32,000 bases of DNA from Candidatus Bathyarchaeia archaeon (GTDB lineage Archaea; Thermoproteota; Bathyarchaeia; 40CM-2-53-6): contig JBEKVV010000002.1 in NCBI GenBank assembly GCA_049513715.1, positions 165,548-197,547 of the forward strand. Reading direction: 5' to 3'. The translations under genes were made by a program, and so were the position numbers. The notes under the pieces are model-generated. The model was not told the origin of the DNA. It was given only the letters and a program-made list of their open reading frames with translations, and searched no databases. Below are positions 1,436 through 28,910 of this stretch, piece after piece (position 1 is the first letter of the stretch; the number at the start of each line of letters is the position of its first letter).

Positions 1436-3091
1436 TCACTTGACCGCGGGAACGGACACCTTATGGAAGAGTGGTTTGGCTTCACCGATCATGTGGCCCG
1501 GTTTCAGGTTCAGTTTTCCTGCGTTCCACCACTTCCCAGATTCTTCGTCTAGGTTGAGTTGTTTCGTGATTTGCTCTGCGGTTTCAGGCAAGAAAGGTGA
1601 AATTAGAATCCCTATTGTGTGGACTAATTGGATGGCAAGATAGAGGGTTGTGGCTGTCTTCGTTTGGTCTTTCTTTATCAGGTGCCACGGTTCGCGTTCG
1701 CTAAGATACTGATTCCCGGTTCTCGCCAGCCCGATTATCGCAGCCAAAGCCACCTTCAGTTGGAATTGGTCGAGGAGCGAGTTGACCTTTGTCGGCGTGG
1801 CCTCGATCTCTTTCTTGAGGGCTTCGTCCTTCTCGTCAAAGCCGTGAGGCTCGGGTACTTTCGATTCGAAGGATCTGTTGATGAATGTGAGAGTACGGTG
1901 TACGAAGTTCCCAAGCACATCATTCAGTTCGCTGTTCACATGTGCTTCAAAATCCCTCCACGTGAAGTTTGCGTCACGCGCTTCGGGTCTTATTGCCATA
2001 AGCACATACCTCCAATACTCTCCTGGCGCGACCTTCAATGCGTCATCTATCCATACGCCAATTTGCTTGCTCTTCGAGAACTTCTGCCCATCGAATAGTA
2101 TGAATTCCGTTGAGGATACTTGCCACGGAAGAACATAGTCCTCGTGCGTGGCGAGTAGAAGCGCGGGAAATATGATCACGTGGAAAGGAATGTTGTCCTT
2201 CCCGATGAAATGCACGTTCCTCGTTGCTTTGTCAAACCAAAAATCCTTCCACGCTTCTGGCTTACCTGATTTCTCAGCCCATTCAATTGAGGCGGAAACA
2301 TAGCCCAGAACCGCCTCGAGCCAAACGTAAATGGTCTTTCCTTCCGCGCCCGGAAACGGTGCGGGGATTCCCCATTTATTGTCGCGCGTTAGAGCCCGTG
2401 GTTTCAACCCTTCCTCAAGCCATCGAAGGGAGAAATTTCGAGCATTTTCGGGAAGTTGCTTGTTGTTTTGGACGCTGTCCAACAGTTTGTCCCGGAACTT
2501 TGGGAGGTCGAAGAACCAGTGAGTGGACGTCTTCACGGTTGGTGTTGTCCCGCAGAAAACGCACTTGGAAGTTTTCAACTCAAGGGGATCTAGCACGCGC
2601 CCGCAGGAGTCGCATTGGTCTCCTCGGGCTTGCTCGAAACCACAGAAGGGGCATGTGCCTTCAACGAACCTGTCCGGAAGAAACCTTTGGTCCTTCTCGC
2701 AGTACGGCAGATTCACGTTTTCAGTGTACACGTACCCGTTCTGGTAGGCCTTCTTGTAGAGGTCTTGAGTGAATCGAATATGGACGGGATTTTCTGTTCG
2801 CGTGTAGTTGTCGAACCGTATGTTGTAGGCTTCGAGTAGCCTGCATATCTCGCTATGAATCCCGTCCGTTAGTTGCTTCGGCGGTATGCCCCTTTTGATG
2901 GCTTCCACTTCAATTGGGGTTCCATGCTCATCGGAGCCTGTAACCGCTATAACCTGTTCCCCTTTCAAGCGGAGGTACCTGGAGTAGACATCGGCGCTGA
3001 CAAGATGCAGGAACGTGCCAAGGTGCGGAACAGAGTTAACGTAGGGCCAGGCAGCGTTTACAATCCATTTTCCCATCGAAGCTCCCTCCAA
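1436..3091 (-). CDS. metG: methionyl-tRNA synthetase
   Basis: Class I signatures are present: a HIGH-type motif (VPHLGT) and a KMSKS-type motif (KFSKSK). Zinc knuckles CPFCG/CDSCG and CVFCG are also present, and length and order are typical of archaeal MetRS. An alternative start is the ATG at 3076 (MGKWIV). Confidence 0.93.
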   Translation of the reverse strand: MEGASMGKWIVNAAWPYVNSVPHLGTFLHLVSADVYSRYLRLKGEQVIAVTGSDEHGTPIEVEAIKRGIPPKQLTDGIHSEICRLLEAYNIRFDNYTRTENPVHIRFTQDLYKKAYQNGYVYTENVNLPYCEKDQRFLPDRFVEGTCPFCGFEQARGDQCDSCGRVLDPLELKTSKCVFCGTTPTVKTSTHWFFDLPKFRDKLLDSVQNNKQLPENARNFSLRWLEEGLKPRALTRDNKWGIPAPFPGAEGKTIYVWLEAVLGYVSASIEWAEKSGKPEAWKDFWFDKATRNVHFIGKDNIPFHVIIFPALLLATHEDYVLPWQVSSTEFILFDGQKFSKSKQIGVWIDDALKVAPGEYWRYVLMAIRPEARDANFTWRDFEAHVNSELNDVLGNFVHRTLTFINRSFESKVPEPHGFDEKDEALKKEIEATPTKVNSLLDQFQLKVALAAIIGLARTGNQYLSEREPWHLIKKDQTKTATTLYLAIQLVHTIGILISPFLPETAEQITKQLNLDEESGKWWNAGKLNLKPGHMIGEAKPLFHKVSVPAVK

Positions 3092-3223: not shown

Positions 3224-3634
3224 TTGAGTGTAGATTACGCTAAGCTGCTGGACAGAGCATACGAGAAGTTGCCAGCCGTAGTGGGTACTGGGGAGAGATT
3301 TGAGATTCCGAAGGTAGTAGGGATCAGGATGGGTAGGCGAACTATCCTCCAAAATTTCGGTGAGATAAGCAGCAGAATAAACAGGGACCCACACCACTTG
3401 CTGAAATTCCTTTCAAAGGAGCTGGCCACAGCAGCATCATTAGACGGTGCTAGGGCGATCTTCCAAGGAAGATTCGATGTTCAAACAGTAACACGCCTTT
3501 TGGGCATCTACGCGCAACGGTACGTCATATGCCCCATTTGTAGGCGGCCGGACACCAAGATTGAGAAGGAGGGCCGCTATCTGTTTCTTAGATGCGAAGC
3601 CTGCGGCGCTAGGTCGTCAATACTCCAAACCTGA
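3224..3634 (+). CDS. translation initiation factor aIF2 beta subunit
   Basis: YAKLLDRAYEKLP, RFEIPK, NRDPHHLLKFLSKELAT and a C-terminal zinc ribbon CPICRRPDT...CEACG. The start is TTG; the next in-frame Met would remove the conserved N-terminus. Confidence 0.9.
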   Translation: MSVDYAKLLDRAYEKLPAVVGTGERFEIPKVVGIRMGRRTILQNFGEISSRINRDPHHLLKFLSKELATAASLDGARAIFQGRFDVQTVTRLLGIYAQRYVICPICRRPDTKIEKEGRYLFLRCEACGARSSILQT

Positions 3635-3648
3635 GAAAGTGCAGCCTC

Positions 3649-3948
3649 GTGAGCGGAGTCTTTCTCCGAGTCTTCAATGGCCCAGACCACACACTCGTTG
3701 CAGCATGCGACGCAGAACTGCTGGGGGAGACATTCAAAGAGGGAAAGCTCAAGCTCGAAGTGAAAGAGGGCTTCTACAAAGGCATCCAGACCAGCATCCC
3801 AGACGCTCTTCGCGCCATCGACGAAGCAGACATCGCCAACCTCGTAGGGAAGGCAATCATTGAAGCTGCCGTAAGGGAGAGACTGGTTGACCCATCCGCA
3901 GTTGCCCATATCGGCGGCGTTCCACACGTGCAGATCGTTCGAATGTGA
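3649..3948 (+). CDS. DUF424-like small conserved archaeal protein
   Basis: The pattern LVAACDAELLGETFKEGKLKLEV...FYKG...GGVPHVQIV matches my memory of the DUF424 family, which commonly follows aIF2-beta. Function is unknown. Confidence 0.65.
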   Translation: MSGVFLRVFNGPDHTLVAACDAELLGETFKEGKLKLEVKEGFYKGIQTSIPDALRAIDEADIANLVGKAIIEAAVRERLVDPSAVAHIGGVPHVQIVRM

Positions 3949-4023
3949 CCAGATGCCGTATCCAATCTACTACGCTTATTTACTCTAACCCAATATTCAG
4001 CGTAACTTAACGTCGGTGAAAGA

Positions 4024-4329
4024 TTGGGGAAGAAGAAGGTTCTGAGTGAGGGCGACCTCCGAGAGATGGTTATGCCTGGCGAGGGGCAGATGCTGGGGAT
4101 TGTAACTCAAATGCTCGGATACGACCGGCTCATGGTCAAATGTGGCGACGGTCACGAAAGGGTTTGCCGGATCAGGGGTAAGATGAAACGTCGGGTCTGG
4201 ATCAAGATTGGGGATGTTGTTTTGATGGCTCCATGGGACTTCCAAACAGACAGCAGAGGAGATATTCTTTGGCGATATACGGAAAGCCAGGCAAACTGGC
4301 TTCGCAGCAAAGGGCAACTCGCGGTCTAG
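4024..4329 (+). CDS. eif1a: translation initiation factor aIF1A
   Basis: S1-like OB core: PGEGQMLGIVTQMLGYDRLMVKCGDGHERVCRIRGKMKRRVWIKIGDVVLMAPWDFQ...GDILWRY. TTG start. Confidence 0.9.
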   Translation: MGKKKVLSEGDLREMVMPGEGQMLGIVTQMLGYDRLMVKCGDGHERVCRIRGKMKRRVWIKIGDVVLMAPWDFQTDSRGDILWRYTESQANWLRSKGQLAV

Positions 4330-4352
4330 CAATCTGTCAATGACTTCGAGGG

Positions 4353-5159
4353 TTGGTTAAAGTGGAGTCCACAGCTGAGCGGAAGCTACGTAGAAAGGTA
4401 GTTCACTACGAAGTCAAACGATTGATGAGGGAAAAACGCAGCGAGGAAATGGAATCCCTTGAGGAAGTCTTCGACCGGTCAACCTTGATGATTGTCTACC
4501 GTCTCCTAAACCGTGGCTACATCAAGAACATCAATGGAGTCGTGCGGTCGGGGAAAGAGGCTAGGATATACTGGGGAATGGGCCGTCGACACAAACTAGT
4601 AGCGATAAAGATTTTCTTAACTACGTCCCACCAGTTCAAGAAGGGCAGAATGATGTACATTCAGGGAGACCAAAGGTTCAGGAGCACAAGGAAGGATACG
4701 CGGTCCCTTGTGAACCTCTGGGCATTGAAAGAATTCAGGAATCTTCAACAGGCTCAGTATGCGAAGGTTAACGTGCCGGTTCCCCTGAAGGTCGAAGGAA
4801 ACGTTCTGTTGATGGGGTTCATTGGTAGAAATGGAGTTCCCGCCCCGCTCTTGAGGGAATCCCCACTGGACCATCCGGGTAGGGTTTATGACAAGATTGC
4901 CGAATCTATCAAGAAACTCTATCAGAAGGCACACCTAGTCCACGGTGACCTAAGTGAGTACAACATCATGATGGTTGATTCGGACCCACTCTTCTTCGAC
5001 TTCGCGCAAGCTGTTCCCCCAGAGCATCCCATGGCACGGCAGTTCCTCGAAAGAGACCTCATCCGAATGAACGAGTATTTCACGAAAATTGGTGTGACGG
5101 TTGTTCCGATGGAGAGACTGGTTCCTTGGGTGACTGGTGAAGATGGAAACGAAAGTTAG
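4353..5159 (+). CDS. rio1: RIO-type serine protein kinase (Rio1-like)
   Basis: EEVFDRSTLMIVYRLLNRGYI...GVVRSGKEARIY (the ATP-binding STGKEA-type motif) and a catalytic-loop LVHGDLSEYNIM. It lacks the N-terminal wHTH of Rio2. It sits in the conserved aIF1A-Rio-KH gene order. Confidence 0.88.
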   Translation: MVKVESTAERKLRRKVVHYEVKRLMREKRSEEMESLEEVFDRSTLMIVYRLLNRGYIKNINGVVRSGKEARIYWGMGRRHKLVAIKIFLTTSHQFKKGRMMYIQGDQRFRSTRKDTRSLVNLWALKEFRNLQQAQYAKVNVPVPLKVEGNVLLMGFIGRNGVPAPLLRESPLDHPGRVYDKIAESIKKLYQKAHLVHGDLSEYNIMMVDSDPLFFDFAQAVPPEHPMARQFLERDLIRMNEYFTKIGVTVVPMERLVPWVTGEDGNES

Positions 5160-5715
5160 CGCCATGATCCCCCTTGAACGACTAGGGGTACTGATCGGAA
5201 AGGAAGGTTCAACGAAAAGCAAAATCGAGCACGCCTTCAACTCACATCTCCAAGTCCAGAGCGAGAGCGGCGTCGTAGACATAGTCCCGAAAGAGAATTC
5301 CGAAGACCCAACCACAGTCCTACGAGCAAGAGACGTGGTGCTCGCAATCGCACGCGGTTTCTCACCTGAACGAGCGTTGAAACTCGTGGACGACGACATC
5401 GTTCTGGACATCATCGACCTTCGGGAAACGTTTGGGAGAAACGAACGCGACATCGCTCGCCTGAAGGGTCGAGTGATTGGGCGCGAAGGAAAGATTCGCA
5501 GGTTAATAGAAGAGATGACTAGTGCGCGGGTCTCGGTTTATGGCCACACGATCTCAATGATCGGCGTCTATGAGGACGTCACTGCCGCGAGGGAAGCAAT
5601 AGAAATGTTGCTCAAGGGCAAACAACATTCCACCGTGTACAAACTCCTTAGAAAGATAAAAAGCGAAAGCAAAAAGCGAGAAACCCTTGAACTCTGGCAG
5701 AAACCACCAACATGA
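5137..5715 (+). CDS. KH-domain RNA-binding protein (Dim2/Pno1-like)
   Basis: Two KH-like GxxG segments (LIGKEGSTKSKIE and VIGREGKIRRLIEE). Its position directly after the RIO kinase is typical of archaea. The start is uncertain; it overlaps the RIO gene's 3' end by 23 nt. Confidence 0.75.
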   Translation: MKMETKVSAMIPLERLGVLIGKEGSTKSKIEHAFNSHLQVQSESGVVDIVPKENSEDPTTVLRARDVVLAIARGFSPERALKLVDDDIVLDIIDLRETFGRNERDIARLKGRVIGREGKIRRLIEEMTSARVSVYGHTISMIGVYEDVTAAREAIEMLLKGKQHSTVYKLLRKIKSESKKRETLELWQKPPT

Positions 5716-11267: not shown

Positions 11268-12674
11268 CTATCTGCGTAAACCTCGCCTTCTTGGCGCGTA
11301 AATGGCGAAGACGCCCTTCCACATTGCATCATAAGCTCTGCTCATCGTTTCAATGAAGCGCTTACTGTTTGTCCAGAAGCCCACGTCCGCGCCAACATCG
11401 GCGCTATTGTCGTCTGGGAGGCGTTCGTAGAGCATCAATTCACGCTGGTCAGCTATGGCAATTCCTGCCGGCCCCAAGGCCTCTGAATAACGAAGCTCTG
11501 ACACCGGAACCAACTTGCGGGCTCCCTCAGTATTCTCACTGGTAATGGGTGCCAATATGCGAACTTTTGTGCCCCGTGCCTTCGTTTCCTTGAGTTGCTC
11601 GAAATGAAAGTCTGCCAGAGCTTGGATGCCCCTCATTGTAGTCCAGATTTCAACGCTTTCGTTGGACGAGGCAATCATCTCGTTCAACTTTCTGGAGACC
11701 TCGGTCCTACCTTTGAAGATCCTGAGGTCTTCAGACGGTATCCCTTTCCGAAGAACCTCTATTCGCCCATCGGATGGTGTGCCAGAATTCCACATTTCCT
11801 CGAAATATGCTTGGAGGTTTCTTACGAAAGCGTGGCTGTTTATCCACAGGGCAACCTCTTCGCCCCCGCGTTGGGCTTCGTCGGTTGTTGTTATTTCGAA
11901 CAGAGCTTCTTTGTCGTCTATTATTGAGACTCGCGGTATCGGTTTCGTCTTCAAGTCCAGATGCCTGATTTCGATGCCTTCACGAAGGCGTGCGACAATG
12001 TTTAGGTTTGATTGGTTGATTTCGGTGATTACTCGGACGCGTAGGCCACCTTTGGCGGCTTTGGTTAGCATATCAAGAAGTCCCGACGTGTCTGCACGCA
12101 CGATTTCCGAGGGCGATAGAACCGTCATTACGGATTTTTGGCCTTGGGCGTACATGCTTTGGAGTCGCTGCTCAATTCGAATTCGGCCTTCAACCACCTG
12201 AAAGCGGTCAACTTCCTGCGTGACCCGCTCCACTCGTATGCCCTCGAATAGGTGGCGCAGGTTTTCGCCGCGCTGTTCGAGTATTCGAAGCCTCGCCTTC
12301 CTCTCATCAATTAGAACCTGCAAGCACTTGTCGAACGGCACCGACTGAAACCGAATCGGTCTTTCCAGAGTCGCTTCCACCAGACCACGACGTTGGAGGT
12401 TTCTGATGGTCCGGTAGGTTTCGGTTCTGTTGATCTGAACCGCGCGTGCAACTTCGCTTGCTTTCGAGGGCCCTGTCTTGGCGAGGAAGACGAGTACGCG
12501 TCCCTCGTTTCCTGTCAGGCCGTATTCCTGCAGCTCCGCGACAATGTCGCCTACGGTTTCGCCCTGAAGTGAGCTCGTGGATTGCGCCCCTAAATCATTG
12601 TCTGGTACGGAGGCGACACGGCCAAATATAAACAGAAACTGGAACAAAGTGACGTCAGTAATATCAGAAAGCAA
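11268..12674 (-). CDS. TrmB-family transcriptional regulator (long form with C-terminal sensor domains)
   Basis: LQEYGLTGNEGRVLVFLAKTGPSKASEVARAVQINRTETYRTIRNLQRRGLVE...RPIRFQSVP is the TrmB N-terminal wHTH. The start is uncertain (TTG at 12674 or TTG at 12647). A TTTATATTT string lies inside the putative first 20 codons. Confidence 0.8.
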   Translation of the reverse strand: MLSDITDVTLFQFLFIFGRVASVPDNDLGAQSTSSLQGETVGDIVAELQEYGLTGNEGRVLVFLAKTGPSKASEVARAVQINRTETYRTIRNLQRRGLVEATLERPIRFQSVPFDKCLQVLIDERKARLRILEQRGENLRHLFEGIRVERVTQEVDRFQVVEGRIRIEQRLQSMYAQGQKSVMTVLSPSEIVRADTSGLLDMLTKAAKGGLRVRVITEINQSNLNIVARLREGIEIRHLDLKTKPIPRVSIIDDKEALFEITTTDEAQRGGEEVALWINSHAFVRNLQAYFEEMWNSGTPSDGRIEVLRKGIPSEDLRIFKGRTEVSRKLNEMIASSNESVEIWTTMRGIQALADFHFEQLKETKARGTKVRILAPITSENTEGARKLVPVSELRYSEALGPAGIAIADQRELMLYERLPDDNSADVGADVGFWTNSKRFIETMSRAYDAMWKGVFAIYAPRRRGLRR

Positions 12675-12949
12675 GCCGAGGGCGCGAAACCTGTCGAAAC
12701 AGGAAGTGTGGGTCTCAGAGATGTGAGCTCAGAGAGTGGCATGCAAGGGGCCATGAAGGCTACGGAGTATCTTGCTGTTGAGTTTTTGGCTGCGTGGTGT
12801 CCACGGCGTGATAGGCGAATTGGTGGGCTACATGCTCGGCCCAGGTTGAAGGCTGAACTCGACCGAGCCCTGCAAAACCTGAGAGAACGCCTAAGCAACG
12901 GCTCCTCGGTTCAACTCTGATTTCGCGGCAAGTGCTTTGTGGGGCTTTG

Positions 12950-14968
12950 TTATGCGATGCCGGTCCGAACACGCGTGTAGACTCTTTCTGCGCCGTATGG
13001 TTTGAAGGCAGTTCCGCTCCCTGAGTAGAACTTGAGGAACCACTCTACCCAGTGAAGTCGAAGCGACTGCATGAAAACAAACGCCGTTTCTAGGATGAAT
13101 ATGAGCACGATGCTCAGGGCTGCGAAGAGTGCATACCCAATTGCGTCGCCGGCAATTGATCCCCATGCCACGAAGAACACTAGAACGCCTAGGAAGAGCC
13201 GGTAGAATACGTCCTCGATAAGTTTCATGGCCAGAATTCGCACGTAGGATATTGTGTGTGATAGCGACGCTAGAAGCGATTCGAAAGCGCTCATTCCGCC
13301 CATGGGGCCCTCAGCCCATATTTTCAACGCCACCATCGCAATCAGGGGGATACCCATCCTAAGGAATATGTCAACCGTGTTGGCGGAGTTGAAGAGGTAG
13401 TTGGGGAATCTCAAGCCGTACTGTAGTAGCGTGATGCCGAAAGCGCCGTAGAACCAGAGCCACACAACTGGTCCAGATATTAGCTCACGGTATTCGCGCA
13501 CGTAGACCTTATTGATTATGTCGAGCACGAGGCCGGACATTATGTGAATCACTCCAATTGTGATGGATAGCCGGAGCATGAGTCGAATGTTGTCGAATGG
13601 TTCAAACCACAAAGGCCCGGGCAGGCCTGTTAATTGCTTGAACCATTCAATGTTTCCGAAAACCGTTCCGTATAGGAAACCGATGACCATTGCGGCGGCG
13701 CCACTGAATATCAGTAATCCTGAACCTTGAACGACCATGTTAAAGACGCTGCCCATTCCGCCATACGCCGTGTCTGATATGACGAGCCCTCGGCGTTTGT
13801 AATAGTAGATGATTGATGAGATTATCATAACTACGATGCCATTACCTACGTCCCCGAACATGAAACCGAAGAAAAGTGGGTAAGTGATAACCCAAAGAAC
13901 TGTGGGGTCGATTTCGTCACTCTTCGGAATCCCAAAACCAACAGTGAGTTTTTGGAAGATGGAGACACGTTTCGGGTTATTCATCTGAGTCGGCCCATTC
14001 TTACCCGCCCAGTCCCTCATGATCACCTCGCCCTCGCACATCGTTTGAAGGTTCGAGCCGATCATTTTGACTTTGGATGTGGGCATCCATCCCTCAATCA
14101 TGTAGGTTGATTCTGTTTTCCCGCAGTACCCTTTTGCCTGTTCAAACGCACGCTCGGCTGCAACAACCTCTCGATTGACTAAGAGGAATTCACTGTCTTT
14201 CTGGCTGATGTCGGCGAGTTTCGCCTTCAATAGCTCTAGGCGTCTCTTAGATTCCTCGATTCGGCTGGTCGGCTCATAGGAAAAGTGCTTGCTTTTCGAA
14301 ATGGCCTTCAGTTTCAGGTTCAGGGTTTGTGTGATGGTGTCGGCGATGGCTGCTTCGTCGCGTTTCGTAGCCATGATTTTGACAACGTTATCCGCGATGT
14401 CATTCACGACCGCGTCTTCCAATGCCTTCGCTTGAATGATCTCATTCAGGACTCCGGCGGGCTTGATTTCGGAGGGTTTCAGAGTCTGGAAGATGCCTGA
14501 TAGAATCTCTTCCAGCTTATGCCTCCCCTCAGGAGAATTTACGTCCTCGATTTCGGAGATTTCCTCAATGTTGATCTTGAGCTGTCGCTCGGCGTAAGTG
14601 ATTAAAGATTCAAGTGCCTGCACCTCATTCGTCGCAGAGGCTACCTGCTGTTCGATCTCTGTCACTTTCTTCTCTACCGACGCGATCTCATCATCAGACA
14701 TCCGGGCATTGACTTGAACTGGCTCGGCGTGAATCGGATCAATTCCCAATGATGCGATTACTGAGCTGATCTTTGACTCGAGTGTGGTAAGGCGATAGAG
14801 TCTGTCCGAGACGTTGGCGGAGGTTACTCCTCCTCCATAACCCTTGATCATTTCTTTTACGTCGAGGAGCTCGAGGGTGTTTTGTTCACGGAGGTAGAGC
14901 ATTGTGTCTTCGTATTTTCTTTGGGGGATGATTATTTCGACTCGTCTCATTCTTGTCGGTAGAAGCAA
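12950..14968 (-). CDS. atpI: A/V-type ATP synthase subunit I (membrane a-subunit)
   Basis: The N-terminus MRRVEIIIPQRKYEDTMLYLREQNTLELLDV, a long coiled-coil cytoplasmic domain and a C-terminal multi-TM domain with SYVRILAMKL (the essential Arg context). No other ATPase subunits are in the window. Confidence 0.88.
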   Translation of the reverse strand: MLLPTRMRRVEIIIPQRKYEDTMLYLREQNTLELLDVKEMIKGYGGGVTSANVSDRLYRLTTLESKISSVIASLGIDPIHAEPVQVNARMSDDEIASVEKKVTEIEQQVASATNEVQALESLITYAERQLKINIEEISEIEDVNSPEGRHKLEEILSGIFQTLKPSEIKPAGVLNEIIQAKALEDAVVNDIADNVVKIMATKRDEAAIADTITQTLNLKLKAISKSKHFSYEPTSRIEESKRRLELLKAKLADISQKDSEFLLVNREVVAAERAFEQAKGYCGKTESTYMIEGWMPTSKVKMIGSNLQTMCEGEVIMRDWAGKNGPTQMNNPKRVSIFQKLTVGFGIPKSDEIDPTVLWVITYPLFFGFMFGDVGNGIVVMIISSIIYYYKRRGLVISDTAYGGMGSVFNMVVQGSGLLIFSGAAAMVIGFLYGTVFGNIEWFKQLTGLPGPLWFEPFDNIRLMLRLSITIGVIHIMSGLVLDIINKVYVREYRELISGPVVWLWFYGAFGITLLQYGLRFPNYLFNSANTVDIFLRMGIPLIAMVALKIWAEGPMGGMSAFESLLASLSHTISYVRILAMKLIEDVFYRLFLGVLVFFVAWGSIAGDAIGYALFAALSIVLIFILETAFVFMQSLRLHWVEWFLKFYSGSGTAFKPYGAERVYTRVRTGIA

Positions 14969-14998
14969 TTTGGTGAATCTCCTGAGTTCTTTGAGAGA

Positions 14999-16174
14999 CT
15001 ATTCGGTTGTTTCGGGTGCTTCCCTCTCACGGTCTCTGCGGCGGCTTTGTTTTTGGGTCATTAATCGTTTAAGCCTGTCCGTTATTAAATCGTACACCGC
15101 GGGAAGATCCCAGCCTTCTTCTGAATAGGTGTACGAATCCGTTGATGTCCTAATGTGCACGTTCACCTCGTATCTTCCCCGTTCCTTTCCAGGCTTTGTG
15201 AACTTGGATTTTATCACCGATCTTGCTTCGAGAATGTCCGGAAAGATTCGGTGCAAATGATTAATTGTTCGTTTGAATTTGGCCTTGGTCGCTTCTGCTT
15301 CAAACGGGTCATCGGGTAGCCCCACCATGAAAACTGGAACCTCTGTATTGGGCTCCGGCTCCGCGAGCAGAGTCATGAAGTCCCGGTGGGTTGCGATTTC
15401 CTGTATCTCCTCCCACTGGGTGACCAGAATATACGTTCTTGCGCTCTTCAGCATGCTCTCTAGAGCCTGTTCTACGCTCGTTTCTGGGGTGCATGTCAAT
15501 GGAGTCAAGTCCATAGCATTGCCGACGGGAAAGTCCAAGGGTCCCCGTGTTTCGGGCCTTATCGATTTGGGCCCCATCCTCTTTGACTGGGCCATTCGCA
15601 TTACAACGTCTGTCGAGGTCAGCATCCCCGCCAACCGTCCAGTTCGTGTCACGGGGAGGTGGTCGACGCGTTTTCGAACCATCAGGTCCCTAGCCTTGGC
15701 GGCCGATGCTTCCGCATCTATGGTGAACGGCTTCTTGGTCGCAATGGATGTGACCCGCAAATCCTGCCCGAGCTTTCCCTTCAATTGCTGAAGCAGCTCT
15801 ATGCTGTTCACTTGGCCGATGATTTTGTGTTCGTCCGAAACGGGAACTGCCCTGATTCGGTAGTCTGACATCAACCTCGCGGCCTCTCCGATGACAGCTT
15901 CCTTTCTCAGAACCGGCACGTATGACATTAAGTCTGGCAGTTTTGTGGTCTCAATACTCGTCCGCAGAACGTTTCGGGCTGAGATCACTCCGCACCTGTT
16001 GCTTTCAGGAAAGAATACCTCGTAATTGCCCCGTTCAGATAGTAAACCGATGACCTTGGAGAGGTGGCTGTCCGGGCGGGTCTGTATGAGCTCTGAAACG
16101 AAGGGCTCAATTGGTTGCTCTCGTAAAGCCTCCACGTACTTCGGCAACCTTGTGACAGGCAAAGCAGACCTCAT
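14999..16174 (-). CDS. four-CBS-domain protein with C-terminal HPF/RaiA (ribosome hibernation factor)-like domain
   Basis: Four CBS-like repeats form two Bateman modules (e.g. ...AVPVSDEHKIIGQVNSIELL, ...HLPVTRTGRLAGMLTSTDVV). The C-terminal ~100 aa (FEAEATKAKFKRTINHLHRIF...RYEVNVHIRTSTDSYTYSEEGWDLPAVYDLITDRLKRLMTQKQSRR) follow the beta-alpha-beta-beta-beta-alpha pattern and end motif of HPF/YfiA proteins. The domain call is by eye only. Confidence 0.6.
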   Translation of the reverse strand: MRSALPVTRLPKYVEALREQPIEPFVSELIQTRPDSHLSKVIGLLSERGNYEVFFPESNRCGVISARNVLRTSIETTKLPDLMSYVPVLRKEAVIGEAARLMSDYRIRAVPVSDEHKIIGQVNSIELLQQLKGKLGQDLRVTSIATKKPFTIDAEASAAKARDLMVRKRVDHLPVTRTGRLAGMLTSTDVVMRMAQSKRMGPKSIRPETRGPLDFPVGNAMDLTPLTCTPETSVEQALESMLKSARTYILVTQWEEIQEIATHRDFMTLLAEPEPNTEVPVFMVGLPDDPFEAEATKAKFKRTINHLHRIFPDILEARSVIKSKFTKPGKERGRYEVNVHIRTSTDSYTYSEEGWDLPAVYDLITDRLKRLMTQKQSRRRDREREAPETTE

Positions 16175-16192
16175 TCCATGCTATTGATTCGC

Positions 16193-17560
16193 TCAGCTTC
16201 CTCCTGAAAGACCGTGTTCCCTCAAATATGTTCCGTAGTAGATCAGCGCCCAGAGGGCCCGGGAGGCCCTTTCGGGGACCGAGTACGATGGTACTCCTCG
16301 CTTCTCGAAGGCGGATCGCATAGCTTCAGCCATCTCGGTTCCACCCATGTCACAGACCGTGACTGGTTTCTTGTATCTTGGCAGCGTTTCCGCTATAACC
16401 CCAACCGCATCATCCAGAATCGTTGGGGCGTGATGAAGTGCGATTACTACGGCCCCCCCGATTTCAGGATCCTCCAAAATCGTAGACAACGCCAACGAAA
16501 ACATTTCACTTGAAGCTTCAGCGGACAAGTCCATCGGATTGAAACCTGAAAGTACGGGTAGGAGAAGATTCTTGGCCTTGTAATCGGCGAATTTAGACAG
16601 GATGCGTTCCGGGAACTTGTCCACCCTGAGGCCTGAGCTTTCTAGAGCGTCTGCAGCTATGATTCCCGGCCCTCCGGCGTTGGTCAAAACTGCCACGGAT
16701 TTCGAGTAGCCTGGTGGCTGTAACGTTAGGGCCCGCCCGAAATCAAAGAGTTCCTCAACGTCATGGACCCTGATTATGCCTGCCTGCCTGAATGCACCAT
16801 CGTAAATCGCATCCATTCCAGCTAAGGCGGCTGTGTGCGAAGTGGCTGCTCTGGTTCCGGCAGTTGTTTTGCCTGACTTCAAAGCCACAACAGGTTTTTT
16901 CGCTGAGGTGGTCTTTGCTTTCTCGATGAATTCCCTGGCTTTCGCCAAGCCTTCCACATACATTAGAATGACAGCAGTCTTATCGTCCTGCCCGAAATAC
17001 TCGAGCAATTCGTCCTCGGTTACGTCGCATCGGTTTCCGTAGCTCACGAAACCTCGTATTCCCATCCCGTGGCCTGCCATGTAGTCAAGTGCGGCTGCGC
17101 CGAACGCGCCGCTCTGCGTGAGAAATGAAACCGACCCTGGCCTTGGCCTTGGGGTTGCTACCACTTCGCGTCCATCTGAGAGGAACTTCGTTTCTGGCAG
17201 AAACAGAGTATCTATTCCCGTGTAAGCGTCGTAGATTCCTAGGCAATTCGGCCCGATTATTCTCACATCGTACTTTCTAGCTATGTCTACTATTTGGTGT
17301 TCGAGTTCGTGGTTTCCGATCTCTGCGAAGCCGGAAGAGATTACGATCGCTGCCTTGGCCCCCGCTTTCCCAGCGTCATCAATGACGCCCGGGACTAGGT
17401 GTGCAGCGACAGCCACAAGAACTGTCTCAACGGGTTTTGAGATCGCTGAAACGGTAGGATAGCATTTGTCACCGAGGATTTCGGTGTGGTTGGGGTTTAC
17501 TAGGTAGACTTGGCCTTTGAAGAGACCTCTATTCCTGTTCGTAACCATGTTTTGGGCCAT
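16193..17560 (-). CDS. acetyl-CoA synthetase (ADP-forming) alpha subunit / NDP-forming acyl-CoA synthetase CoA-binding subunit
   Basis: GPNCLGI, SQSGA and the phosphohistidine loop TRAATSHTAALAG. Coordinates are for the canonical ATG ORF. The conserved N-terminus (LDSFFEPKSLAIVGASSTPSRIGYV) continues in frame upstream to about 17656 without an ATG, GTG or TTG (see findings). No beta (ATP-grasp) subunit is in the window. Confidence 0.85.
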   Translation of the reverse strand: MAQNMVTNRNRGLFKGQVYLVNPNHTEILGDKCYPTVSAISKPVETVLVAVAAHLVPGVIDDAGKAGAKAAIVISSGFAEIGNHELEHQIVDIARKYDVRIIGPNCLGIYDAYTGIDTLFLPETKFLSDGREVVATPRPRPGSVSFLTQSGAFGAAALDYMAGHGMGIRGFVSYGNRCDVTEDELLEYFGQDDKTAVILMYVEGLAKAREFIEKAKTTSAKKPVVALKSGKTTAGTRAATSHTAALAGMDAIYDGAFRQAGIIRVHDVEELFDFGRALTLQPPGYSKSVAVLTNAGGPGIIAADALESSGLRVDKFPERILSKFADYKAKNLLLPVLSGFNPMDLSAEASSEMFSLALSTILEDPEIGGAVVIALHHAPTILDDAVGVIAETLPRYKKPVTVCDMGGTEMAEAMRSAFEKRGVPSYSVPERASRALWALIYYGTYLREHGLSGGS

Positions 17561-17631: not shown

Positions 17632-18726
17632 CTAGGCGACTACCTTCTTTAGGTATTGAATGTCTCCCCCGCTTTTCCGCTCTTTCCAGAATTGACAGAC
17701 TGCGTTGTTGCTTTCAAGATAGCGGTTCATGGCGACCTCGGAGACCATTTGAGCAGAGCGGGAGATTTCCGCGAGATTCCACACGACCCCCCTGAGGGCT
17801 AGTGCGACTTTGCGGTCCTGAACATTCACGACGACTTCCTCTGTGAGGGTCTTTTCCATCTCCTCAATGTGTCTGGTTCGTTCAATGACCCGATTTGCGA
17901 GGTCGACGTCGAGCACGCTTAGGGCATCCATGGCGCCTTTGGCGATTGCTAGGGATTCGACGCCGAACTTGCAGACGTCATCGATCGTTGCGGAGAATTG
18001 TGTGTACTTTTCGTCTGCCAGGGACAGTATGAGATTTGCAATAGACTCGCTGCAATCCGCCATCTCTTCTAGGTATTTCGAGACAGCTCTGTAACCGATA
18101 GCATGCGTCGCAGATTCTATCCCAACGTGTCGTGACAACGGGATCTTTGAGACGGCGCGGAATATTTGCCGCAGAATAAGCCAATAGAGCCTATCTGCTT
18201 CATTCTCGAGTTCCAAGACCTCTAGGGCCAGTGAGAACTTCCTATCCGTCAGGGCCTGCATCGCTGTCTCTAGCATTGAGACTGCGACTTTGTGCAGCCG
18301 TCCAAGGAGTCCCGTGATCGGGAATTTTGTGGGGTCCAAGAAGCATTGAATCACTGCTTCCTTCGGAGTCTGCTCTACTATTCCCAGCCCGCTCAGCCTT
18401 CGAGTGGAATCGCGGATTTCCGCGAGTTGTTCGGGGGTAAGTTCGTTGGAGGAAGAGATTATGATTGTGTCGCGGCCGAGGATGTAATTCCCTGTAATCA
18501 TTCTCTCTAGGAGTTCGCGGTCTTTGCATGCGTCTGCGTTGATCTTGCAGACAGTCATCTCCTCGGATTCCATTTCGCTGCCAGGGGTTACGACTAGCTC
18601 GCCGAATTCGGAGAGGCGAAGTGTGACTACGCCTCCTTGCTTTAACCCCACTTGCCTAACCCAATCTCTTGGTAGTGATACGGTTAATGTCGAGTGGCCG
18701 ACTCTCTGGACCTTTCTAATCTCCAA
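17632..18726 (-). CDS. AbrB/SpoVT-domain + PhoU-domain regulator (paralogue 1)
   Basis: The N-terminal swapped-hairpin motif MEIRKVQRVGHSTLTVSLPRDWVRQVGLKQGGVV, followed by two PhoU-like helical repeats (EADRLYWLILRQ..., ...WNLAEISRSAQMVSEVA). TTG start. Confidence 0.8.
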   Translation of the reverse strand: MEIRKVQRVGHSTLTVSLPRDWVRQVGLKQGGVVTLRLSEFGELVVTPGSEMESEEMTVCKINADACKDRELLERMITGNYILGRDTIIISSSNELTPEQLAEIRDSTRRLSGLGIVEQTPKEAVIQCFLDPTKFPITGLLGRLHKVAVSMLETAMQALTDRKFSLALEVLELENEADRLYWLILRQIFRAVSKIPLSRHVGIESATHAIGYRAVSKYLEEMADCSESIANLILSLADEKYTQFSATIDDVCKFGVESLAIAKGAMDALSVLDVDLANRVIERTRHIEEMEKTLTEEVVVNVQDRKVALALRGVVWNLAEISRSAQMVSEVAMNRYLESNNAVCQFWKERKSGGDIQYLKKVVA

Positions 18727-27845: not shown

Positions 27846-28910
27846 TTGGAAGCTAGAAAAGTTCAGAGGGTTGGATACTCAACCCTGACCGTGTCCCTGC
27901 CAAGGGATTGGGTCGAGGATGTTAAACTGAAAGCCGGCGACATTGTCTCAATCAAACGGGAAGATGACGGGACCCTAAAACTGATCCCAGGAACGGAGCA
28001 TAAGCGGGACGAGGTCAAGAACTGCATCGTCAATGCGGACATGTGTAACTCCGATCACCTTCTCACCCGAGTCATAACCGCCAATTACATTCTCGGGCAC
28101 GACACAATTCAAGTCCTCGCCAAGGACGAATTGAAGAAACATCATCTGGAAGAAGTGCGAACGACGACGCAACGTTTGACGGGGTTAAGCATTGTCGAGC
28201 AAACCCTCAAATCGGTGACCCTTCAGAGTTTTGTTGACCCGACTCGTTTTCCGATTTATGGACTCATGCGCCGCCTACACATTATCATCACATCCATGCT
28301 AGATGCGTCAATGAAGGCATTACTTGAGAGGCGTCCTGAACTTGCCGGCGAAGTCGCTCATATGGAGGAGGAGTCTGATAGGATTTATTGGTTGATTGTT
28401 CGGCAGCTACTTCTCGCAATACGCGACCGCAGCGTAGGATCTAAGATTGGCATCGAATCGCCAATCCACATACCCGGTAACAGGGTCGTGGCGAAGACGC
28501 TGGAGGAGATGGCGGATTCAGCCGAGAGCATTGCTAACGAGGTCTTGGTACTGAAGGACAAGGAAATTGTGAGCGAGGCCATTATACATGATGTTACAAG
28601 GTTCTGTGCGCAGGTCGTCAAGATTTCTGAACAGAGCATGAAAGCGCTACTAACCTCGGACATTATTCTTTCGAACGAGGCTGTTGAGTTGGTGGAGACT
28701 GCGGAGAACGATGAAAGGAAACTCACGCAGAAGATTCTCACTTTGAAGGATGTTGGCGTGGCCACCAGCTTACGAATAATAGTCTGGAACCTCGGCCAGA
28801 TCAGCAAGTACTGCAGAATAATCGGTGAGATCACTATAAACAGGATAATGGAGAGGCCCTCACAAATCTGCGAATACCTCCCAATCCCAGAAGGCAGAGC
28901 AGCAAGCTAG
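27846..28910 (+). CDS. AbrB/SpoVT-domain + PhoU-domain regulator (paralogue 2)
   Basis: MEARKVQRVGYSTLTVSLPRDWVEDVKLKAGDIV plus PhoU-like repeats (ESDRIYWLIVRQ, VWNLGQISKYCRIIGEI). It is collinear with the 17632-18726 protein, roughly 40% identical by eye. TTG start. Confidence 0.8.
   Translation: MEARKVQRVGYSTLTVSLPRDWVEDVKLKAGDIVSIKREDDGTLKLIPGTEHKRDEVKNCIVNADMCNSDHLLTRVITANYILGHDTIQVLAKDELKKHHLEEVRTTTQRLTGLSIVEQTLKSVTLQSFVDPTRFPIYGLMRRLHIIITSMLDASMKALLERRPELAGEVAHMEEESDRIYWLIVRQLLLAIRDRSVGSKIGIESPIHIPGNRVVAKTLEEMADSAESIANEVLVLKDKEIVSEAIIHDVTRFCAQVVKISEQSMKALLTSDIILSNEAVELVETAENDERKLTQKILTLKDVGVATSLRIIVWNLGQISKYCRIIGEITINRIMERPSQICEYLPIPEGRAAS

What the first reader, a model, noticed from the sequence alone, without database searches (positions are those of the whole stretch)
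14999..16174. Four CBS domains fused to an HPF/RaiA-like ribosome-hibernation domain
The 391-aa protein has two Bateman modules (4 CBS repeats, classical adenine-nucleotide sensors). Its C-terminal segment spans residues ~283-375, nt ~15050-15328.

The sequence there is PFEAEATKAKFKRTINHLHRIFPDILEARSVIKSKF...RYEVNVHIRTSTDSYTYSEEGWDLPAVYDLITDRLKRLMTQKQSRR. It tracks the beta-alpha-beta-beta-beta-alpha layout of bacterial HPF/YfiA. It also tracks the terminal motif (compare ...atlhvnGgeihAsaegqDmYaAiDglidKLarQl.KhK).

A nucleotide-sensing module fused to a ribosome-silencing fold would be a direct energy-charge-to-translation switch. Archaeal hibernation factors are poorly charted. I am not aware of a characterised archaeal protein with this architecture, though I cannot search for one.
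Basis: inference. Interest (0 to 1): 0.7.

Follow-up and report, generated by a model that had tools for sequence, protein, structure and literature searches.

The report
Known archaeal ribosome hibernation factor HibA

Summary
ORF 14999-16174 (-) encodes 391 aa. [quoted passage not shown]

The tail alone is just below Pfam's PF02482 cut-off (21.2 vs 23.7 bits). Three other tests support the HPF/RaiA assignment:
- A profile of 53 related tails hits solved bacterial HPFs (4e-5).
- 14 of those 53 tails hit PF02482.
- The 29 best PDB matches of a tail-only model are all HPF/RaiA/YfiA-type factors (TM up to 0.85).

The best solved relative is Pyrococcus abyssi HibA (9SR9 chain H, 392 aa; 4e-14 alone, 3e-47 with the family profile, aligned end to end). 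HibA (Nat Commun 2026) and Haloferax AHA (bioRxiv 2026) are shown to block the mRNA/tRNA channel, insert a CBS3 loop into the peptidyl-transferase centre, bind AMP and preserve 70S ribosomes. HibA is reported in 47% of archaeal genomes, and IMG already labels this exact protein 'CBS.../RaiA'.

Whether nucleotides actually switch binding is unresolved even for HibA.

Local oddities are a G259E change in CBS4 and conserved placement between acyl-CoA synthetase and ATPase subunit I genes.

The parts
14999..16174 (-). hibA/AHA-type gene, 391 aa including stop codon at 14999-15001. An alternative TTG start at 16162 would give 387 aa.
   Evidence: ORF list. The exact protein is on 22 metagenome contigs, with both 391- and 387-aa gene calls. 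DNA read.
15959..16114 (-). CBS repeat 1 (about residues 21-72)
   Evidence: Model secondary structure H38-47 E52-57 E60-65 H66-70. G62-x-x-S65-x-R67-N68 motif.
15785..15940 (-). CBS repeat 2 (about residues 79-130)
   Evidence: Model H95-104 E109-113 E118-123 H124-129. Pfam CBS.
15587..15760 (-). CBS repeat 3 (about residues 139-196), with G183-x-x-T186-x-x-D189 ribose-site motif
   Evidence: Best Pfam CBS stretch 141-194. Model H158-167 E172-177 E180-186 H187-196. Motif conservation.
15530..15586 (-). [quoted passage not shown]
   Evidence: No secondary structure, pLDDT about 54-73. Aligns with P. abyssi HibA 190-207; E201->E208 and K192->R199 kept. Loop role described in the papers.
15371..15529 (-). 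CBS repeat 4 (about residues 216-268). T262-x-R264-D265 kept; E259 where 65 of 69 relatives have G.
   Evidence: Model H234-243 E248-253 E256-262 H263-267. Column counts.
15056..15340 (-). [quoted passage not shown] Expected to sit in the 30S mRNA/tRNA channel.
   Evidence: Models. Foldseek top 29 hits all HPF/RaiA-type. Profile vs PDB. PF02482 in 14 of 53 relatives. hhalign vs E. coli HPF. K299 invariant in 69/69 and aligned to HibA R292, which contacts h44/H69.
15002..15055 (-). Basic C-terminal tail (residues 374-391, QKQSRRRDREREAPETTE), counterpart of the HibA tail that reaches h23/h24/uS7/uS11 at the mRNA exit channel
   Evidence: Low pLDDT in the whole-protein model; the helix is prolonged to tail-model residue 115 (= protein residue 384) in the tail-only model. 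R376->R380 and R383->R384 mapping. HibA description.

Best explanation
The gene encodes a Bathyarchaeia member of the HibA/AHA family of archaeal ribosome hibernation factors.

By homology to the solved P. abyssi and Haloferax complexes, the expected mechanism is as follows:
- The C-terminal HPF/RaiA-like domain (279-373) and its basic tail lodge in the 30S decoding centre and mRNA channel. There they overlap the mRNA and the A- and P-site tRNA anticodon stems.
- The N-terminal CBS tetrad docks on the 50S subunit.
- The long loop after CBS3 (197-215) reaches the peptidyl-transferase centre.
- Because one polypeptide holds both subunits, idle 70S ribosomes are kept assembled, translationally silent and protected from degradation during starvation or stress.
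- The CBS3/CBS4 interface most likely binds AMP, ADP or ATP.

Shown here: the domain architecture, the fold, family membership by sequence and structure, and conservation of some rRNA-contact residues.

Inferred from the literature, not shown for this protein: ribosome binding, translation inhibition, nucleotide binding, and any nucleotide control of binding.
For: Closest solved relatives:
- The end-to-end phmmer hit to P. abyssi HibA, 9sr9_H (392 aa), is the best of all PDB sequences: E=4.2e-14, residues 36-381 vs 21-377.
- The family profile raises it to 2.7e-47. It also hits a second ribosome-style 406-aa chain, 9l96_a, at 4.8e-44. Both alignments run through the tail.
- 9SR9 is identified as HibA-ATP in the paper's data availability section.

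Structure:
- The tail-only model has pLDDT 84.9, and its 29 best PDB matches are all HPF/RaiA/YfiA/pY/RafH/MPY. The best is V. cholerae HPF, TM 0.85, 2.0 A.
- The tail profile hits S. aureus, Listeria and E. coli HPFs (the 4v8h chain is most likely T. thermophilus HPF, by my recollection of that entry).
- 14 of 53 family tails hit PF02482.

Family shape: the tail family in 1.84 billion representatives comprises 137 clusters, mostly 365-410 aa with the tail at the C-terminus.

Residue mapping onto HibA's published contact table:
- R292 (h44/H69) -> K299, invariant in 69/69.
- R290->K297, D306->D313, R366->R370, R376->R380, R383->R384.

Published function of the family:
- Cryo-EM positions.
- Translation inhibition that needs the C-terminal domain, a 60% loss of 70S and delayed regrowth in a knock-out.
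- Ribosomal-protein depletion in the AHA knock-out.

IMG already names this exact sequence 'CBS domain-containing protein/ribosome-associated translation inhibitor RaiA'.
Against: - Identity to P. abyssi HibA is only about 19% over 366 aligned positions.
- The tail-only profile did not retrieve the HibA or 9l96 tails at E<=1, so the tails have diverged strongly.
- Many HibA contact residues are not conserved: R299->H306, R347->S351, H358->D362, R362->D366.
- The A-site insertion that touches G496/A1461/uS12 in HibA is 3 residues shorter and different in sequence.
- The tail alone misses Pfam's and NCBIfam's curated cut-offs.
- I could not superpose the model on the HibA coordinates, because the Foldseek PDB copy ends on 2026-04-08, before their release.
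- No experiment exists for any Bathyarchaeia member.
- E259 replaces a near-invariant glycine in the CBS4 nucleotide-site motif.
Confidence: 0.9

Rival explanations
1. Energy-charge switch. AMP/ADP/ATP occupancy of the CBS tetrad directly decides whether the protein binds or leaves the ribosome: AMP-bound means engaged, ATP-bound means released. This is a sub-hypothesis on top of the HibA assignment, not an alternative to it.
For: - The ribose/phosphate-site motifs of CBS3 (T186, D189) and CBS4 (T262, R264, D265) are present.
- P. abyssi HibA binds AMP at 12 uM, ADP at 65 uM and ATP at 113 uM at the CBS3/4 interface.
- AHA carries two AMP molecules on the ribosome next to the PTC-inserting loop.
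- The unrelated CBS-tetrad ARC factors are reported to be released by ATP.
- The CBS tetrad resembles AMPK-gamma.
Against: - In reconstituted P. abyssi complexes, 5 mM AMP or ATP left the binding and the distribution of the conformations largely unchanged. The authors state there was no clear effect.
- Native HibA-ribosome complexes carried no nucleotide.
- The window protein has E259 instead of the family's glycine in the CBS4 motif, which may alter that site.
- Nothing has been measured for this protein.
Confidence: 0.4
2. The protein is a CBS-tetrad regulator of something other than the ribosome, for example a transcription regulator like HhpR or a partner of replication/recombination proteins. 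In that case the HPF-like tail would be a degenerate or repurposed RNA/protein-binding module.
For: - CBS tetrads serve many roles. The CM-3/HhpR family is a transcription factor, and CM-6/AMPK-gamma-like proteins are not thought to be ribosomal.
- HibA was pulled down with replication/recombination proteins in Thermococcales.
- Many HibA-ribosome contact residues are not conserved here.
Against: - The tail is the most conserved part of the protein among relatives: the invariant columns cluster in 280-375.
- It keeps the complete HPF fold and the invariant K299 at an rRNA-contact position.
- The best PDB relative is HibA, well ahead of Sri, Dri and AMPK-gamma.
- The CBS3 loop used for PTC insertion is retained at the same length.
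- Translation inhibition by HibA depends on this C-terminal domain.
Confidence: 0.05
3. The HPF-like signal is a chance resemblance of a small alpha/beta domain, so the protein is simply a CBS protein with an unrelated C-terminal extension.
For: - Single-sequence scores are below the curated cut-offs: PF02482 18-21 bits vs 23.7, TIGR00741 21 vs 40.9.
- hhalign probability against a single E. coli HPF sequence is only 61%.
- The top profile hit in the PDB was a spurious 28-residue match to Q-beta coat protein.
Against: Four independent lines agree:
- Profile hits to many solved HPFs over about 90 residues.
- PF02482 hits in 14 of 53 relatives.
- The correct order of all six secondary-structure elements in a confident model.
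- Only HPF/RaiA-type factors among the 29 best structural matches.

The solved homologue HibA also has this fold on the ribosome.
Confidence: 0.02

Closest known systems
HibA (Pyrococcus abyssi Q9UYR4 / PAB0961; Thermococcus barophilus F0LKU5), Madru et al., Nat Commun 2026, PDB 9SR9-9SRF, 9T7H
   Same: - Same length (391 vs 392 aa).
- Same order of four CBS repeats, a long loop after CBS3 and a C-terminal HPF/RaiA domain with a basic tail.
- Best PDB sequence match, aligned end to end.
- Several rRNA-contacting basic residues conserved.
   Different: - About 19% identity.
- The A-site insertion in the beta2-beta3 loop is 3 residues shorter.
- Many contact residues are replaced.
- E259 replaces G in the CBS4 motif.
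- The organism is a mesophilic, uncultured Bathyarchaeia from peat/soil rather than a hyperthermophile.
- No experimental data.
AHA (Haloferax volcanii HVO_2384), Souza et al., bioRxiv 2026
   Same: - Same CBS-tetrad + HPF architecture, described as present in 2,723 archaeal species of 17 phyla.
- CBS3 'loop 3' goes into the PTC.
- Terminal helix longer than in E. coli HPF. In the tail-only model the last helix spans tail-model residues 88-115, i.e. protein residues 357-384.
   Different: I could not compare sequences directly because the coordinates had not been deposited when the preprint appeared. The two-AMP occupancy seen in AHA is untested here.
Bacterial HPF / RaiA (YfiA, pY), Pfam PF02482, TIGR00741
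   Same: [quoted passage not shown] The same expected binding site in the 30S mRNA/tRNA channel, by analogy with HibA/AHA.
   Different: - Fused to an N-terminal CBS tetrad.
- Longer beta2-beta3 loop and terminal helix.
- No long-HPF C-terminal dimerisation domain.
- Below Pfam and NCBIfam cut-offs as a single sequence.
CBS-tetrad-only archaeal hibernation factors: Dri (Pyrobaculum, 9E6Q/9E7F), SriA-D (Methanosarcina, 9ZNF-9ZNI), ARC-A/P (Methanolobus)
   Same: The CBS tetrad is structurally and sequence-related. [quoted passage not shown]
   Different: These factors lack the HPF domain. Published surveys find them largely mutually exclusive with HibA/AHA across lineages.
AMPK gamma subunit and archaeal CBS tetrads MJ1225 / Sso3205
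   Same: Four-CBS disc with adenine-nucleotide sites. Foldseek E about 1e-14 to 1e-18, TM normalised to the target 0.7-0.8.
   Different: No kinase partners and no ribosome-binding tail in those proteins. Only the sensor module is shared.

Membership tests
HibA / AHA archaeal hibernation factors | N-terminal module of four tandem CBS domains (two Bateman modules) | tested here: met
   Pfam CBS E=4.5e-26. Four CBS units in the model. Superposition on CBS tetrads.
HibA / AHA archaeal hibernation factors | [quoted passage not shown] | tested here: met
   Models. Foldseek top 29 hits all HPF/RaiA-type. Profile hits.
HibA / AHA archaeal hibernation factors | Extended loop in/after CBS3 (PTC loop, P. 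abyssi 190-207; AHA loop 3) | tested here: met
   Residues 197-215 are an unstructured, low-pLDDT loop of the same length at the aligned position. Sequence only partly conserved: E208 and R199 kept, and the aromatic Y195 of P. abyssi is not.
HibA / AHA archaeal hibernation factors | Full-length sequence homology to an experimentally characterised member | tested here: met
   9sr9_H E=4.2e-14 (single sequence) and 2.7e-47 (family profile). It is the top PDB hit both times.
HibA / AHA archaeal hibernation factors | Archaeal-specific insertions in the HPF domain, and a long terminal helix / basic tail | tested here: inconclusive
   The long last helix and basic tail are present. The beta2-beta3 loop is longer than in bacterial HPF (gap in the E. 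coli HPF alignment) but 3 residues shorter than in HibA. The second insertion could not be located without the HibA coordinates.
HibA / AHA archaeal hibernation factors | Conservation of residues that contact 16S rRNA and r-proteins in the HibA-70S structure | tested here: inconclusive
   About 10 of 53 listed C-domain contact positions keep the same or an equivalent residue, including the invariant K299 (= R292). Many are replaced (contact table).
HibA / AHA archaeal hibernation factors | Binds 30S/70S ribosomes and inhibits translation; preserves 70S in stationary phase | not testable with these tools
   Shown only for P. abyssi / T. barophilus HibA and H. volcanii AHA.
HibA / AHA archaeal hibernation factors | Adenine-nucleotide binding at the CBS3/CBS4 interface | not testable with these tools
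   T186/D189 and T262/R264/D265 are present, but there is E259 where 65 of 69 relatives have G. Binding itself is unmeasured.
Bacterial HPF/RaiA family as defined by Pfam PF02482 / TIGR00741 | Score at or above the curated cut-off | tested here: not met
   18.3 bits (whole protein) and 21.2 bits (tail) vs 23.7. TIGR00741 scores 18.0 and 21.2 vs 40.9. Homology is nevertheless supported at profile and fold level.
Long HPF (lHPF) of bacteria | C-terminal dimerisation domain that drives 100S formation | tested here: not met
   The protein ends 18 residues after the HPF domain. No second C-terminal domain appears in the Pfam scan at E<=10.
Dri / Sri / ARC CBS-only hibernation factors | One or two CBS tetrads without an HPF domain | tested here: not met
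   An HPF domain is present. These chains score lower than HibA with the family profile, 1e-27 to 1e-40 vs 3e-47.

The most novel reading that the evidence does not exclude
In Bathyarchaeia the hibernation-factor gene may be wired into energy metabolism at the operon level. It sits 18 nt after the stop of an ADP-forming acyl-CoA synthetase alpha gene and 30-48 nt before an A-type ATPase subunit I gene. This order is kept in MAGs of about a dozen other Bathyarchaeia species whose HibA has diverged to 54-71% identity.

Combined with the lineage-specific G259E change in the CBS4 nucleotide-site motif, this could mean two things: a variant whose expression is coupled to ATP-generating enzymes, and whose nucleotide sensing differs from that of HibA/AHA. 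Neither was reported in the papers I read.
Probability: 0.1. Interest if true: 0.35.

Novelty: already known. Interest (0 to 1): 0.15.

Why it matters
The finding adds nothing categorically new. The CBS-tetrad + HPF fusion has been structurally and genetically characterised, and surveys report it in about half of archaeal genomes.

Its value is confirmatory:
- It shows that a sequence-only reader can recover a real, recently discovered architecture.
- It supplies an annotation for a gene that NCBI labels only 'CBS domain-containing protein' in Bathyarchaeia, an abundant, uncultured, slow-growing sediment and peat lineage in which ribosome dormancy is ecologically relevant.

Two details could guide work on the still-open question of whether adenine nucleotides control these factors: the conserved neighbourhood with ATP-generating genes, and the unusual CBS4 residue. 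Both are minor leads.

Tried and rejected
- The search for related loci with the diverse alignment A3 failed because no stretch was conserved enough. I used the closer alignment A1 instead.
- The Foldseek PDB copy ends on 2026-04-08, so the HibA entries are absent. The whole-protein model therefore matched only CBS tetrads, and I could not superpose it on HibA.
- The tail-only profile A2 did not retrieve the tails of P. abyssi HibA or 9l96_a at E<=1. Only the full-length profile linked them.
- The best A2 hit, the Q-beta minor capsid A1 fusion (8feh_D, 1.9e-5), is two copies of a 28-residue beta-hairpin match (12.7 bits each). I rejected it as spurious.
- I looked for a paper describing PDB 9L96 and found none. 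P0185, a 406-aa Nitrosocosmicus protein, is not that chain.
- I looked for explicit presence/absence of HibA in Bathyarchaeia. The main texts do not mention the class. The source-data sheet held here lists at least 149 Bathyarchaeia genomes in the survey database, but only taxonomy columns are readable.
- The bacterial-type promoter/terminator scan around the gene was at background level and does not apply to an archaeon.
- Conserved synteny as evidence of functional linkage: I rejected this as strong evidence. The whole block of about 11 genes is collinear across these Bathyarchaeia, and the Nitrososphaerales homologues lack it.
Full report
**What is there**

The quoted tail sequence and the nt range 15050-15328 for residues 283-375 are correct.

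The exact protein is encoded on 22 contigs of JGI metagenomes, some of them up to 585 kb long. NCBI holds a 387-aa version from a 'Candidatus Bathyarchaeia archaeon' MAG. The nearest species-level genomes are all Bathyarchaeia MAGs, several of them from peatland projects, at 54-71% identity. A more distant set at about 28-37% identity is in Nitrososphaerales.

The rest of the window is ordinary archaeal chromosome. It encodes MetRS, aIF2-beta, Rio kinase, a KH protein, topoisomerase VI A/B, KaiC-like ATPase, pyruvate:ferredoxin oxidoreductase, HypA/HypB and MoeA.

**Checking the observation**

The CBS signal is strong: PF00571 scores E=4.5e-26.

The HPF signal is weak for the single sequence. 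PF02482 scores 18.3 bits in the whole protein and 21.2 bits for the tail alone, against a gathering score of 23.7. TIGR00741 scores 21.2 against 40.9. On that basis alone the claim would be only suggestive, so I tested it in four further ways.

1. A phmmer search of the tail alone against 1.84 billion cluster representatives found 137 clusters. Most are 365-410 aa with the match at the C-terminus, and about 23 are standalone proteins of 100-145 aa.
2. A profile of 53 diverse tails hits solved bacterial HPFs over about 90 residues. These include S. aureus at 4.2e-5, plus Listeria and E. coli HPFs and the 4v8h chain (most likely T. thermophilus HPF, by my recollection of that entry). Of the 53 tails, 14 individually hit PF02482, best 1.3e-6.
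3. AlphaFold2 with a 69-sequence alignment gives a confident model (pLDDT 86.9, pTM 0.75). It has four CBS units, a disordered loop at 197-215, and then beta 281-284, alpha 290-310, beta 314-324, beta 334-343, beta 347-354, alpha 357-373.
4. A tail-only model (pLDDT 84.9) searched with Foldseek against the PDB returns only HPF/RaiA/YfiA/pY/RafH/MPY chains in the first 29 places. The best superposition is V. cholerae HPF (TM 0.85 normalised to the target, rmsd 2.0 A).

The whole-protein model matches CBS tetrads: Sso3205, MJ1225, AMPK-gamma, SriA/SriD and Dri.

**What it is**

The best match among all PDB sequences is chain H of 9SR9 and seven sister entries. This is a 392-aa protein deposited as 'Dehydrogenase', aligned over residues 36-381 of the query at E=4.2e-14. 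The data-availability section of Madru et al. (Nat Commun 2026, PMC13324472) identifies these entries as Pyrococcus abyssi 70S-HibA complexes.

With the family profile the match rises to 2.7e-47 and runs through the tail. A second ribosome-style chain of 406 aa (9l96_a) scores 4.8e-44 over its whole length. The CBS-only factors Sri and Dri score lower.

HibA is defined in that paper by the following features:
- four CBS domains (residues 1-269);
- a 'PTC loop' at 190-207.

The same protein family was independently described in Haloferax volcanii as AHA (PMC12934967). There, 'loop 3' of CBS3 sits in the peptidyl-transferase centre and two AMP molecules are bound at the CBS3/CBS4 junction.

The window protein has each architectural feature at the corresponding position. 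IMG's automatic annotation already calls this exact sequence 'CBS domain-containing protein/ribosome-associated translation inhibitor RaiA'.

**Residue-level comparison**

I rebuilt P. abyssi HibA residues 3-377 from the printed alignments. All 81 residue names in the published contact table agree with the reconstruction.

Aligned through the family alignment, identity to the window protein is only 18.6% over 366 positions.

Contact positions that are kept:
- R292 (h44 G1463 / H69 A2154) -> K299, which is lysine in all 69 family members and is the only invariant residue of the tail alignment;
- R290->K297, D306->D313, L307->I314, T339->T343, R366->R370, Q370->Q374, R376->R380, R383->R384.

Contact positions that are not kept:
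- R299->H306, R347->S351, H358->D362, R362->D366;
- the beta2-beta3 insertion that contacts G496, A1461 and uS12 in HibA, which is three residues shorter here.

This is a divergent orthologue rather than a close copy.

**How it most likely works**

This is inferred by homology with the solved complexes. The HPF domain and basic tail occupy the 30S mRNA/tRNA channel. The CBS tetrad binds the 50S subunit, and its loop reaches the PTC. The covalent link holds the 70S together, silent and protected.

The experimental basis is in the literature and does not come from this protein:
- HibA inhibits translation only when its C-domain is present.
- A T. barophilus knock-out has about 60% fewer 70S ribosomes in stationary phase and a doubled lag.
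- An AHA knock-out loses ribosomal proteins in stationary phase and recovers slowly.

**The energy-switch idea**

HibA's CBS module binds AMP (12 uM) more tightly than ADP (65 uM) and ATP (113 uM), with one site. Yet AMP or ATP at 5 mM did not change ribosome binding or the conformational distribution, and native complexes carried no nucleotide.

In the window protein the ribose-site motifs of CBS3 and CBS4 are present. Residue 259 is glutamate, where 65 of 69 relatives have glycine and some close relatives have alanine. I rate the switch sub-hypothesis at about 0.4.

**Context**

The gene begins 18 nt after the stop of an ADP-forming acyl-CoA synthetase alpha-type gene (16193-17560). It ends 30-48 nt before an A/V-ATPase subunit I gene (12950-14968), all on the same strand.

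The order HypB-HypA-PhoU-ACS-HibA-AtpI-TrmB-luciferase-like-ECF S is kept in MAGs of about a dozen other Bathyarchaeia species. In most of these loci HibA is less conserved (54-71%) than its direct neighbours: ACS 71-81%, and AtpI 71-74% apart from 56% in L016.

Because the whole block is collinear, and the Nitrososphaerales homologues lack it, this is weak evidence for functional coupling. I keep it only as the 'novel case'.

**Novelty and verdict**

The statement that no such archaeal protein has been characterised is no longer true. The family is published with structures, genetics and surveys:
- HibA is reported in 47% of 4,026 archaeal genomes, from a database that includes Bathyarchaeia.
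- AHA is reported in 2,723 species of 17 phyla.

I therefore classify the finding as already known. The window gene is an ordinary, divergent member, and interest is low (0.15).

Noticed in passing
window 16162-16174 (-): The start codon is ambiguous. ATG at 16174 gives 391 aa, and TTG at 16162 (residue 5) gives 387 aa. Most homologues and the NCBI call are 387 aa, and both calls exist in public data.
   Followed up: partly
window 15398-15400 (-), residue E259: There is a glutamate where 65 of 69 family members have glycine (10 of the 43 sequences in the close-relative alignment A1 have alanine), in the G-h-h-T-x-x-D nucleotide-site motif of CBS4. Only this protein and its 97% twin carry E. 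The effect on AMP/ATP binding is unknown.
   Followed up: partly
window 12950-17560 (-); loci L005-L016: hibA is tightly packed between an ADP-forming acyl-CoA synthetase alpha-type gene (18-nt gap) and an A/V-ATPase subunit I gene (30-48-nt gap). The gene order HypB-HypA-PhoU-ACS-HibA-AtpI-TrmB-luciferase-like-ECF S is conserved across Bathyarchaeia MAGs. In most of these loci HibA diverges faster (54-71% identity) than its direct neighbours (ACS 71-81%; AtpI 71-74% apart from 56% in L016). Nitrososphaerales homologues lack this context.
   Followed up: partly
window 11268-14968 (-): The ATPase subunit I gene is followed by a TrmB-like regulator, not by other A-ATPase subunit genes. No c-subunit-sized ORF with a plausible sequence lies in the 276-nt gap. 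Subunit I appears detached from the rest of an ATP synthase operon, or is a paralogue.
   Followed up: no
window 17632-18726 (-) and 27846-28910 (+): There are two paralogous proteins combining an N-terminal AbrB/MazE-type (SpoVT-like) DNA-binding domain with PhoU domains, about 10 kb apart on opposite strands.
   Followed up: no
locus L012 (DATIYC010000034.1): A contig labelled 'Candidatus Acidiferrales bacterium' carries a 59%-identical HibA with the full Bathyarchaeia gene order. It is most likely an archaeal contig mis-binned into a bacterial MAG.
   Followed up: no
loci L018 and L019 (both on CBDAOC010000013.1): One Nitrososphaerales contig carries two HibA-like genes about 50 kb apart. 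This is consistent with the paralogy noted in the AHA preprint.
   Followed up: no
PDB chain 9l96_a (also 9l98, 9l9c, 9l9v): A 406-aa 'CBS domain-containing protein' matches the family profile end to end, including the HPF tail, at 4.8e-44. It has a much longer Gly/Ser-rich CBS3 loop. No paper citing 9L96 is in the searchable library, and it is not the 406-aa Nitrosocosmicus protein P0185.
   Followed up: partly
window 3224-5715 (+): A small cluster of translation and ribosome-biogenesis genes (aIF2-beta, Rio-type kinase, KH-domain Pno1/Krr1-like protein) lies about 10 kb from hibA on the other strand. MetRS is nearby at 1436-3091. There is no evidence of a link to the finding.
   Followed up: no
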